This document shows, piece after piece, positions 37,915-38,363 of a DNA stretch of 64,000 nt. The translations under genes were made by a program, and so were the position numbers. The stretch comes from Bacillota bacterium (GTDB lineage Bacteria; Bacillota; Clostridia; Oscillospirales; Acutalibacteraceae): positions 7,505 through 71,504 of the forward strand of contig JAEWYE010000058.1 of assembly GCA_023458755.1 (NCBI GenBank), read 5' to 3'. The notes beneath the pieces were generated by a model. It was not told where the DNA came from. It did not search any database and saw only the letters and a program-made list of their open reading frames with translations. How positions within the stretch are numbered: the stretch's first letter is position 1; each line of letters begins with the position of its first letter.

Positions 37915-38103
37915 AAAACCTCCTTTTGCTAAAATAGTAGCAGGTTCGCCAACCGCACTAAAAGCAAAAGGAGGTTTTGTCATGAATAACATAAACAGTT
38001 TATCACATTCGAAGTGGAGATGCCAATATCATATAGTCTTTGCACCGAAGTATCGGTGTAAATTGGCACAATGCCTATCCGTGGCTGATGGGGGATCAGT
38101 TTG
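37915..38103 (+). mobile_element. IS200/IS605-family insertion sequence remnant: left-end hairpin that sequesters the RBS, plus a truncated tnpA
   Basis: Hairpin aaaacctccttttgct...agcaaaaggaggtttt (37915..37978). An ORF from 37982 begins MNNINSLSHSKWRCQYHIVFAPKYR, matching the Y1 transposase N-terminus, then degenerates and stops at 38103. Confidence 0.65.
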
Positions 38104-38363
38104 ACAGTGTTATGAATTATCCGGTGACGAAAGCCTGCGTCCAATTTTTTGCTATGCAGAAGGATAATGCGCAGGACTTTGCTGATAATTTATCCGGCTT
38201 TTTAATGTGGAACTCCGAGCAGGTTAACTTTGCCATGCTGAATCTTTTAGACAGCCAAGGCCCCATGCAAAAGGGAGTTGCATGGACCTTGGTTTTTTTA
38301 TTGAAAATTTTTAAAATTATATTATCTGCTATAAAATATATCTTCAGTGTGATAAAATTGTAA
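38040..38363 (+). pseudogene. Fragment of a GH13 alpha-amylase-family gene (neopullulanase/cyclomaltodextrinase-like)
   Basis: The translation WHNAYPWLMGDQFDSVMNYP...NLLDS matches GH13 conserved region ([23 protein letters not shown]...NLLGSHD). Only ~70 aa of homology remain, and both flanks are missing. Confidence 0.6.

What the first reader, a model, noticed from the sequence alone, without database searches (positions are those of the whole stretch)
37915..38363. IS200/IS605 left-end hairpin and truncated tnpA fused to a GH13 gene fragment: scar of a lost neopullulanase-like gene
A 64-nt hairpin sequesters the GGAGG RBS and sits just 5' of an ATG, which is the typical IS200 translational-control structure. 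The following ORF starts MNNINSLSHSKWRCQYHIVFAPKYR, the Y1 (HUH) transposase N-terminus, and then collapses within ~25 codons. At about 38055 a different frame carries the GH13 conserved stretch WLMGDQFDSVMNYP...NLLDS with nothing else of the enzyme. This suggests that an IS200-type insertion into a GH13 gene, followed by deletion, removed most of both. The lost enzyme belongs functionally with the adjacent two-component system, ABC importer and GH77 locus, so the strain may have lost a maltodextrin/pullulan-degrading activity.
Basis: partly seen in the sequence, partly recalled or inferred. Interest (0 to 1): 0.6.

Follow-up and report, generated by a model that had tools for sequence, protein, structure and literature searches.

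The report
Dead IS200 stub fused to amylase-gene fragment
This 450-base stretch is genomic debris: the front end of a small jumping gene (IS200 type) welded by a deletion onto a 69-codon internal piece of a starch-fragment-degrading enzyme gene. It is an ordinary pseudogene scar, not a working element.

Summary
Window 37857-38062 is the left end of an IS200-group element. [quoted passage not shown] Window 38052-38257 matches residues about 355-423 of neopullulanase/maltogenic-amylase type GH13 enzymes (PDB E 2e-16). An intrinsic terminator follows at 38255-38299.

- A conspecific strain (97.7% nt) has the same IS200 left end at the same site. It continues to tnpA codon 49 and a genuine right-end hairpin. 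So the IS sat in the intergenic space after the DUF6056 gene; no GH13 sequence lies 5' of it.
- The tnpA/GH13 joint lies in a 12-nt microhomology, which points to illegitimate recombination.
- A related metagenomic organism carries the likely intact orthologue (87% nt, about 90% aa), beside a DUF6056 paralogue. dN/dS is 0.07, so the loss was recent.
- The adjacent two-component/ABC operon encodes FAD oxidoreductases and a GH2. It keeps its synteny, without any GH13, in two related species whose homology starts exactly where the scar ends.
- The GH77 maltodextrin locus lies 15.6 kb away.

Verdict: an ordinary IS-associated pseudogene scar at a synteny breakpoint. Low interest.

The parts
37812..37847 (+). 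Hairpin after the stop codon of the DUF6056-A gene (36213-37793); probable terminator of that gene. It marks the pre-insertion sequence just left of the IS.
   Evidence: Inverted repeat I3, 15-nt arms, 87% complementary. Present in the MFE fold. Conserved in sister strain L009.
37857..37981 (+). IS200-group left end (non-coding part). The boundary is approximate.
   Evidence: Conservation with other copies of this IS subfamily (L012, L013, L018) begins at CTT(T/C)AGCG; the flanks differ before it. blastn to Clostridium IS200 elements. Sub-threshold Rfam STnc490/art200 match at 37873-37971, 20.1 bits, E 0.15.
37873..37889 (+). Left-end subterminal hairpin CACCGG-ATTTG-CCGGTG. It corresponds to the first inverted repeat of IS200 (nt 12-34 in Salmonella IS200).
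   Evidence: ACCAC...GTG hairpin conserved in all aligned IS200 copies. Picked up by the terminator scan. Layout as described in PMC4513863.
37915..37978 (+). 64-nt hairpin that pairs the Shine-Dalgarno sequence GGAGG (37971-37975) with an anti-SD. It is the IS200 translational-control structure.
   Evidence: 16-nt perfect arms. Fold z = -5.96. Consensus structure over 6 elements with 8 of 25 covarying pairs. Function known for Salmonella IS200 (PMC4513863).
37982..38062 (+). tnpA remnant: codons 1-27 of a Y1 (HUH) transposase. The HUH motif and the catalytic Tyr are missing. The ORF then reads out of context to a stop at 38104.
   Evidence: Pfam Y1_Tnp positions 2-20. PDB 2ec2/2f4f/2a6m. Identical apart from 2 substitutions to L009 tnpA up to 38062, then diverges.
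38051..38062 (+). 5' junction: 12-nt microhomology TAT(C/A)GG(C/T)G(T/A)AAA shared by tnpA codons 24-27 and the GH13 'IGEN' codons. The catalytic Glu codon of GH13 region III reads GTA here.
   Evidence: Window TATCGGTGTAAA, against tnpA in L009 TATCGGCGTAAA and GH13 in L021 TATAGGTGAAAA; 9 of 12 positions are shared between the two parents.
38052..38257 (+). Internal fragment of a neopullulanase-subfamily GH13 gene, equivalent to residues about 355-423 of a 588-aa enzyme. It runs from just after region III to the first half of region IV (NLLDS, without HD). It is in a different reading frame from tnpA'.
   Evidence: 1gvi E 2.3e-16. 87% nt to L010 95-301, about 90% aa. 77% aa to L021. dN/dS 0.07 against L010.
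38255..38299 (+). Intrinsic terminator: stem CCAAGG(c)CCATGCAA / TTGCATGG(a)CCTTGG followed by T7. Origin unknown. Its 5' arm starts at the 3' junction of the GH13 fragment.
   Evidence: MFE fold and terminator scan. No similarity to the IS200 right end. No similarity to the terminator of the L010 GH13 gene.
38310..38337 (+). Promoter-like site of the histidine-kinase operon. It lies at the left edge of the block that is conserved in related species.
   Evidence: TTTAAA-16-TAAAAT. Alignment with L006/L007 becomes recognisable from about 38322, and BLAST homology starts at 38357/38364.

Best explanation
The stretch is a non-functional composite scar left by illegitimate recombination. I see no sign that it is a working element.

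Step 1 (shown). An IS200-group element inserted about 10 nt after the terminator of the DUF6056-A gene in an ancestor of this species. The same left end sits at the same site in a conspecific strain.

Step 2 (shown for the joint, inferred for the mechanism). A deletion or rearrangement joined tnpA codon 27 to codon ~356 of a co-oriented neopullulanase-type GH13 gene. The joint lies in a 12-nt stretch in which the two parents match at 9 positions. It lies inside the transposase gene, not at an IS end. It therefore looks like microhomology-mediated recombination, not a transposase-catalysed event. It removed the IS right end, the HUH and Tyr catalytic parts of TnpA, GH13 regions I-II with the nucleophile Asp, and the region III Glu codon.

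Step 3 (shown for the joint). A second break cuts the GH13 reading frame in the middle of region IV, after NLLDS. That point now abuts an intrinsic terminator and the promoter of a histidine-kinase operon.

Step 4 (inferred). The GH13 gene was native to this lineage and functional until recently. Its closest relative is an apparently intact gene in a related organism, and almost all differences between them are synonymous.

What remains can at most give a short, poorly translated transcript ended by the terminator. That terminator also shields the kinase operon from read-through. The original position of the GH13 gene is not resolved. It may have sat immediately downstream of the IS, or beside the second DUF6056 paralogue as in the relative.
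For: - IS200 left-end identity: blastn to annotated Clostridium IS200 elements; alignments showing the conserved subterminal and SD-sequestering hairpins; layout matches published IS200 (PMC4513863).
- Same insertion in a sister strain: L009 is 97.7% identical over window 35943-38062, then continues with tnpA codons 28-49 and the right-end hairpin GGGCTTGTGCAAACCAC-GCG-TTCAAC-GCG-TGGTTT. This matches the right end of L012, with compensatory stem changes.
- The window contains no right end and none of the L009 3' flank.
- Microhomology at the joint.
- GH13 identity and extent.
- The closest full-length relatives carry the GH13 conserved regions and the MPKLN motif.
- Close intact counterpart (likely orthologue) in L010, next to a DUF6056 gene.
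- dN/dS 0.07 with dS 0.73.
- Synteny breakpoint: nucleotide homology of L006 and L007 to the window begins at 38357/38364, and their upstream genes differ (GT2/GT1 in one, Fe-ADH in the other).
- The scar was found in the same gene arrangement on every contig that carries the exact flanking proteins: 4 contigs, only one displayed.
Against: - The parent arrangement was never seen. No available genome shows DUF6056-A, IS200 and an intact GH13 in a row, and the L009 contig ends 26 nt after the IS right end.
- In the one relative with the intact GH13 (L010), the gene lies upstream of a DUF6056 paralogue that is closer to copy B (71% aa) than to copy A (62%). That is not the geometry seen in the window.
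- The origin of the terminator at 38255-38299 is unknown.
- The dN/dS estimate rests on only 65 codons from a conserved part of the enzyme.
- Lack of function is inferred from missing catalytic parts, not tested.
Confidence: 0.8

Rival explanations
1. An IS200 inserted into a GH13 gene that sat here as part of the neighbouring two-component/ABC/GH77 sugar locus, and a later deletion removed most of both. The strain thereby lost the glucan-degrading arm of that locus.
For: - Both gene remnants are real and co-oriented.
- The window has a maltodextrin-type locus (SBP, two permeases, GH77, LacI) with no GH13 of its own.
- GH13 and GH77 genes are neighbours in some metagenomic loci: L032 and L091.
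Against: - No GH13 sequence lies upstream of the IS left end, which starts about 10 nt after the terminator hairpin of the DUF6056-A gene.
- The sister strain has an IS with both ends at this site.
- The adjacent operon encodes PF12831 FAD oxidoreductases, a GH2 and an MCP, and is syntenic without GH13 in L006 and L007.
- GH77 is 15.6 kb downstream, beyond that operon.
Confidence: 0.1
2. The GH13 fragment never belonged between DUF6056-A and the kinase gene. Version 1: the roughly 22-kb carbohydrate block (38.3-60.1 kb) was inserted into a GH13 gene that lay just upstream of DUF6056-B, as in L010. Version 2: recombination with another IS200 copy elsewhere brought the fragment here. Either way the scar is the seam of a larger rearrangement.
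For: - In L010 the intact orthologue lies directly upstream of a B-like DUF6056 gene.
- The window has two DUF6056 paralogues bracketing the block.
- The kinase operon has different left neighbours in every relative, with homology starting at the end of the scar.
- DUF6056 homologues in other organisms sit next to mobile-element genes: L106.
Against: - tblastn finds no second GH13 remnant near DUF6056-B or anywhere else in the window.
- Conspecific contigs L101 and L103 show LacI directly before the B slot, as in the window.
- No intact or second IS200 copy is present in the window.
- This needs more events than two local deletions.
Confidence: 0.25
3. The remnant has been kept because it does something. 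For example, the structured 5' end of the tnpA transcript might act as a small regulatory RNA, as reported for Salmonella IS200, or the 91-aa ORF might be expressed.
For: - The left end and hairpin are intact and nearly identical in two strains.
- A terminator closes the unit about 320 nt downstream.
- Salmonella IS200 yields regulatory RNAs from this region (PMC4513863; abstract of bioRxiv 10.1101/2024.06.26.600842).
- There is a weak Rfam STnc490 match.
Against: - Conservation at 97-98% is just the strain-level background.
- The simple scan found no + strand promoter in the left end.
- The Rfam hit is far below the family threshold: 20 against 56 bits.
- The 91-aa ORF has no Shine-Dalgarno sequence and no Pfam match.
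- Truncated tnpA stubs of many different lengths are common debris.
Confidence: 0.04

Closest known systems
IS200 (IS200/IS605 family, IS200 group), e.g. Salmonella IS200 and the clostridial 'IS200S-like' elements on pCPF4969 and pCLG1
   Same: - The left end has two inverted repeats in the same order and spacing: a short subterminal hairpin, then a long hairpin that hides the Shine-Dalgarno sequence just before the ATG.
- The TnpA N-terminus (SLSHSKW.C.YHIVF.PKYR) matches.
- DNA identity to the clostridial copies is 71-74% over 37905-38056.
   Different: - Only the left 206 bp survive, against about 700 bp for a full element.
- There is no HUH motif, no catalytic Tyr and no right end, so it can neither make transposase nor be mobilised in trans.
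Neopullulanase / maltogenic amylase / cyclomaltodextrinase group of GH13 (ThMA 1SMA/1GVI, TVAII 1BVZ, neopullulanase 1J0H)
   Same: - 69 codons align without gaps to residues 355-423.
- The close full-length relatives (L021-L030) have the GH13 conserved regions and the MPKLN motif, and are of similar length (ORFs of about 540-600 codons).
   Different: - Only about 12% of the gene is left.
- The catalytic nucleophile region is absent, the region III Glu codon is overwritten at the joint, and the His-Asp of region IV is cut off.
Internally deleted, non-autonomous IS200/IS605 derivatives (MITE/PATE-like mini elements)
   Same: The sister-strain copy (L009) is of this type: left end, 49 tnpA codons, then the right-end hairpin, about 310 bp in all.
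   Different: The window copy has gone one step further and lost the right end, so it is not even a mini element.
Salmonella 5'tnpA / art200 (Rfam STnc490) RNAs derived from the IS200 left end
   Same: Same region of the element and the same kind of long hairpin.
   Different: No evidence of transcription here. The Rfam score of 20 bits is far below the 56-bit threshold. Hfq-dependent control is an enterobacterial feature (my own knowledge).

Membership tests
IS200/IS605 family insertion sequence (IS200 group) | Encodes a Y1 HUH transposase (Pfam PF01797) with the HUH motif and the catalytic tyrosine | tested here: not met
   Only profile positions 2-20 of 121 are present. The alignment with intact TnpA shows that everything after codon 27 is missing. 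It is a remnant, not an element.
IS200/IS605 family insertion sequence (IS200 group) | Subterminal hairpin in the left end | tested here: met
   CACCGG-ATTTG-CCGGTG at 37873-37889, conserved in position and sequence in 7 other copies.
IS200/IS605 family insertion sequence (IS200 group) | Subterminal hairpin in the right end | tested here: not met
   A pattern search for the subfamily right-end hairpin found 0 matches in the window. It is present in sister strain L009 and in L012.
IS200/IS605 family insertion sequence (IS200 group) | 5'UTR hairpin sequestering the Shine-Dalgarno sequence of tnpA (an IS200-group trait) | tested here: met
   37915-37978. 8 of 25 pairs covary across 6 elements. 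Described for IS200 in PMC4513863.
IS200/IS605 family insertion sequence (IS200 group) | No terminal inverted repeats and no target-site duplication; insertion 3' of a short specific target | not testable with these tools
   The right end is missing, and the exact left boundary is known only to a few bases.
GH13 neopullulanase subfamily (GH13_20-like) | Sequence homology to the catalytic (beta/alpha)8 domain | tested here: met
   E 2.3e-16 to 1gvi residues 355-423. 87% nt to the L010 GH13 gene, which itself matches Pfam Alpha-amylase and Malt_amylase_C.
GH13 neopullulanase subfamily (GH13_20-like) | Catalytic triad: Asp in region II, Glu in region III, Asp in region IV | tested here: not met
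   Region II is absent. The Glu codon reads GTA at the joint. The frame is cut after NLLDS, before HD.
GH13 neopullulanase subfamily (GH13_20-like) | MPKLN motif (region V) and N-terminal domain typical of the subfamily | tested here: not met
   Not present in the window fragment. Present in the closest full-length relatives L021-L030. So the parent gene probably belonged to the subfamily, but the remnant cannot show it.
Intrinsic (Rho-independent) terminator | G+C-rich hairpin followed by a T run | tested here: met
   38255-38292 stem-loop plus T7 at 38293-38299. Activity not tested.

The most novel reading that the evidence does not exclude
The scar may be the left seam of a roughly 22-kb carbohydrate-utilisation island: the kinase/ABC/FAD-oxidoreductase/GH2 operon plus the GH77 maltodextrin locus. 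On this reading the island landed in, or was assembled next to, a GH13 gene lying between two hypervariable DUF6056 glycosyltransferase-like cassettes. The IS200 stub and its terminator would then persist as an insulator for the kinase operon. The locus would record how sugar-utilisation blocks are shuffled at DUF6056 hot spots in Oscillospiraceae-like Clostridia.
Probability: 0.15. Interest if true: 0.35.

Novelty: new member of a known kind. Interest (0 to 1): 0.15.

Why it matters
It matters little beyond correct annotation.
- The 40-aa and 91-aa ORFs should be flagged as pseudogene fragments, not as 'hypothetical proteins'.
- The IS200 stub should not be counted as a transposase.
- The locus documents a recent loss of a neopullulanase-type enzyme gene in this uncultured Clostridia lineage. 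It gives a clean example of a microhomology joint inside an IS200 transposase gene.
- It marks a synteny breakpoint that could help in reconstructing rearrangements among related metagenome-assembled genomes.

Tried and rejected
- The word-indexed protein search with the GH13 fragment returned only the fragment's own 91-aa ORF. So no near-identical intact GH13 is in that collection. The exhaustive representative search topped out at 60% identity.
- I suspected that the 588-aa ORF at 46638-48404 was the intact neopullulanase, because of its length. It is a PF12831 FAD oxidoreductase with no similarity to the fragment.
- I looked for a second IS200 copy or other matches to the scar in the window. 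There were none.
- I looked for the IS right end and for the L009 3' flank in the window. There were none.
- I tested whether the terminator at 38255-38299 is the IS200 right end or the native GH13 terminator. It resembles neither the L012/L009 right ends nor the terminator of the L010 GH13 gene.
- I hoped relatives found through the kinase gene would show the ancestral left neighbour. All three have different upstream genes.
- Relatives found through DUF6056 mostly sat on 2-4 kb contigs with unrelated neighbours: P-type ATPase, UvrD helicase, an rve integrase, a convergent ORF.
- The 80 closest JGI GH13 loci share no neighbour with the window, except GH77 in two distant ones.
- I considered that the 120 best tnpA N-terminus relatives, all 46-88 aa, might form a uniform mini-element family. 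Their ends differ, and they are frameshifted or contig-cut copies.
- Rfam at gathering threshold found nothing in the whole window.

Full report
**1. What is there**

The stretch lies between a 526-aa DUF6056 membrane-protein gene (36213-37793, Pfam E 7.8e-14) and a YesM-type histidine-kinase gene (38415-40253), which is followed by an AraC-type response regulator. After the DUF6056 stop comes a hairpin at 37812-37847. A short hairpin follows at 37873-37889. Its 3' arm contains GGAGG, and the ATG follows at 37982. The region folds far better than shuffled sequence (z = -5.96).

**2. The IS200 part**

By protein alone the 40-aa ORF is only a marginal Y1 transposase match (Pfam E 0.0032, below the cut-off; PDB 2ec2 E 0.0018). 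The DNA evidence is decisive.
- Window 37905-38056 is 71-74% identical to annotated IS200/IS605 tnpA loci on Clostridium plasmids.
- Alignments with these elements, and with closer metagenomic copies, show that both hairpins are family features.
- The consensus fold of six elements keeps the long hairpin, with changes on both sides in 8 of 25 pairs.
- The layout fits published IS200: a first inverted repeat near the tip of the left end, and a second one that hides the Shine-Dalgarno sequence (PMC4513863).
- Conservation among copies of this subfamily starts at about 37857, some 10 nt after the terminator hairpin of the DUF6056 gene.

**3. A sister strain fixes the history of the IS**

A Logan contig (L009, SRR15661550) is 97.7% identical to window 35943-38062. 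It has the same left end at the same site. After 38062 (GTAAA) the two sequences part. L009 continues with bona fide tnpA codons 28-49. It then jumps to GGGCTTGTGCAAACCAC-GCG-TTCAAC-GCG-TGGTTT. This is the right end of the subfamily, as seen in L012, with compensatory changes in the hairpin stem.

The ancestor therefore carried an IS200, probably already internally deleted, with both ends in this intergenic space. The window lineage later lost everything 3' of codon 27. The window contains neither the right end nor the 26 nt that follow it in L009, and no second IS200 copy.

**4. The GH13 part**

In another frame, 38052-38257 matches residues 355-423 of maltogenic amylase, neopullulanase and cyclomaltodextrinase structures (E 2.3e-16 to 3e-11). 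An exhaustive search of 1.84 billion representatives gave 280 proteins at E <= 0.001; in most full-length ones the match lies near positions 350-450. The closest full-length genes in JGI metagenomes are 71-77% identical over the fragment. They carry the GH13 conserved regions and the MPKLN motif, which I know as a marker of the neopullulanase subfamily. No other GH13 remnant is in the 64-kb window.

**5. The two joints**

*5' joint.* The window reads TATCGGTGTAAA-TTGGCAC. tnpA in L009 reads TATCGGCGTAAA-GAGATAT. GH13 in L021 reads TATAGGTGAAAA-TTGGCAC. The parents therefore match at 9 of 12 positions across 38051-38062. The joint lies inside the transposase gene, not at an IS end. I take this as microhomology-mediated illegitimate recombination, not a transposase-catalysed event (inference). 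It overwrites the region III Glu codon.

*3' joint.* Homology to the L010 gene stops after GACAGCCA at 38257, inside the His codon of NLLDSHD. The 5' arm of an intrinsic terminator (38255-38292, T7 to 38299) begins right there. This terminator resembles neither the IS right end nor the terminator of the L010 gene. Its origin is unexplained.

**6. Was the GH13 a resident gene?**

Yes, most likely. By chance, a contig fetched through a DUF6056 homologue (L010, JGI 3300038985) carries the last 260 codons of a GH13 gene. It is 87% identical in DNA to 38051-38257 and about 90% identical in protein. It matches the Pfam Alpha-amylase and Malt_amylase_C models. Between the fragment and this gene there are 16 synonymous and 8 non-synonymous differences (dS 0.73, dN 0.05, ratio 0.07). 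Nearly all the divergence therefore accumulated under purifying selection, and the inactivation is recent. This rests on only 65 codons.

In L010 the gene lies directly upstream of a DUF6056 gene that is 71% identical to a second DUF6056 paralogue in the window (copy B, 60154-61731) and 62% identical to copy A.

**7.

Downstream of the kinase and regulator come a solute-binding protein, two permeases, two PF12831 FAD oxidoreductases, a GH2 beta-galactosidase and an MCP. This is not an alpha-glucan locus. Two related species (kinase 86% and 82% identical) keep this block at about 80% nucleotide identity over at least 9.9 kb. Their BLAST homology to the window starts at 38357/38364, and by alignment at about 38322. 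Their upstream genes are glycosyltransferases in one and an Fe-alcohol dehydrogenase in the other, with no GH13. The scar therefore sits exactly at a synteny breakpoint.

It begins 15.6 kb downstream and ends at DUF6056-B. GH13 and GH77 genes are neighbours in two distant metagenomic loci. A generic functional link is therefore plausible, but no physical link is shown.

**8. What cannot be decided**

Two geometries remain.
- (a) The GH13 lay just downstream of the IS, and two local deletions trimmed it.
- (b) The GH13 lay next to the B-type DUF6056 gene, as in L010, and a larger rearrangement or insertion of the roughly 22-kb block produced the present order.

Against (b): there is no GH13 remnant near copy B, and conspecific contigs show LacI directly before the B slot. 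Against (a): no genome with that order has been seen. I rate (a) or an unresolved local history at about 0.6-0.7, and (b) at about 0.25.

**9. Verdict**

The feature is an ordinary IS-associated pseudogene scar. It lacks every catalytic part of both parent proteins, so I regard it as non-functional, apart from a probable terminator that insulates the kinase operon. It is a new instance of a well-known kind. Interest is low.

Noticed in passing
window 60154-61731, with L101 and L103: The second DUF6056 gene (copy B) occupies a strain-variable slot. In conspecific contig L101 the LacI gene is 99.0% identical in DNA to the window and the intergenic spacer 97.5%. Yet the DUF6056 gene there is only 67.7% nt / 58.5% aa identical to copy B. 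The 3' tail of L101 shares a short motif (GGGATTGCC...GTTTGTGTTATTG) with window ~61925-61960, although blastn reported no match for that tail. L103 is 99.1% identical throughout. This looks like allele replacement in a surface-glycan type gene.
   Followed up: partly
window 36213-37793 and 60154-61731: Two DUF6056 paralogues (60% aa, about 69% nt) in the same orientation bracket a roughly 22-kb block made only of sugar-sensing, transport and catabolism genes.
   Followed up: partly
window 61731-64000: About 2.2 kb of AT-rich sequence (29-37% GC) with no ORF of 90 aa or more, and no Rfam family at gathering threshold. It could be decayed genes or a non-coding region.
   Followed up: no
window 45320-48404: Two adjacent PF12831 FAD-dependent oxidoreductase genes (436 and 588 aa) sit inside an ABC-transporter/GH2 operon controlled by a YesM/YesN-type pair. 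The second has a weak DUF7402 C-terminal match. The block is conserved in L006, L007 and L008. The substrate is unknown.
   Followed up: no
L009 1913-2222 (SRR15661550): An internally deleted mini-IS200 of about 310 bp: left end, 49 tnpA codons, then the right end. The internal joint is at AAAAAGG|GCTTGTGC. The right-end hairpin stem differs from that of L012 by compensatory changes (CAG/CTG to GCG/CGC).
   Followed up: partly
proteins P0271-P0390; loci L012, L018: All 120 best database relatives of this tnpA N-terminus are ORFs of 46-88 aa. They are frameshifted, truncated at different points, or cut by contig ends. Examples: L012 has two half-ORFs; L018 is truncated beside a Transposase_mut gene. 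Decayed copies of this IS200 subfamily seem very common in gut and fermenter Clostridia.
   Followed up: partly
window 37873-37971: Sub-threshold Rfam match to STnc490 (the art200 RNA of Salmonella IS200): 20.1 bits against a threshold of 56, E 0.15, covering the whole model. This is consistent with distant homology of IS200 left ends across phyla.
   Followed up: no
window 38057: The only difference from the sister strain inside the junction microhomology (T here, C in L009 tnpA) matches the base found in GH13 genes (GGTGAA). It may be a trace of heteroduplex repair at the joint, or a coincidence.
   Followed up: no
L106 2039-2305: An rve_3 integrase-core gene converges on the DUF6056 homologue P0004. 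This is another mobile-element gene next to a DUF6056 gene.
   Followed up: no
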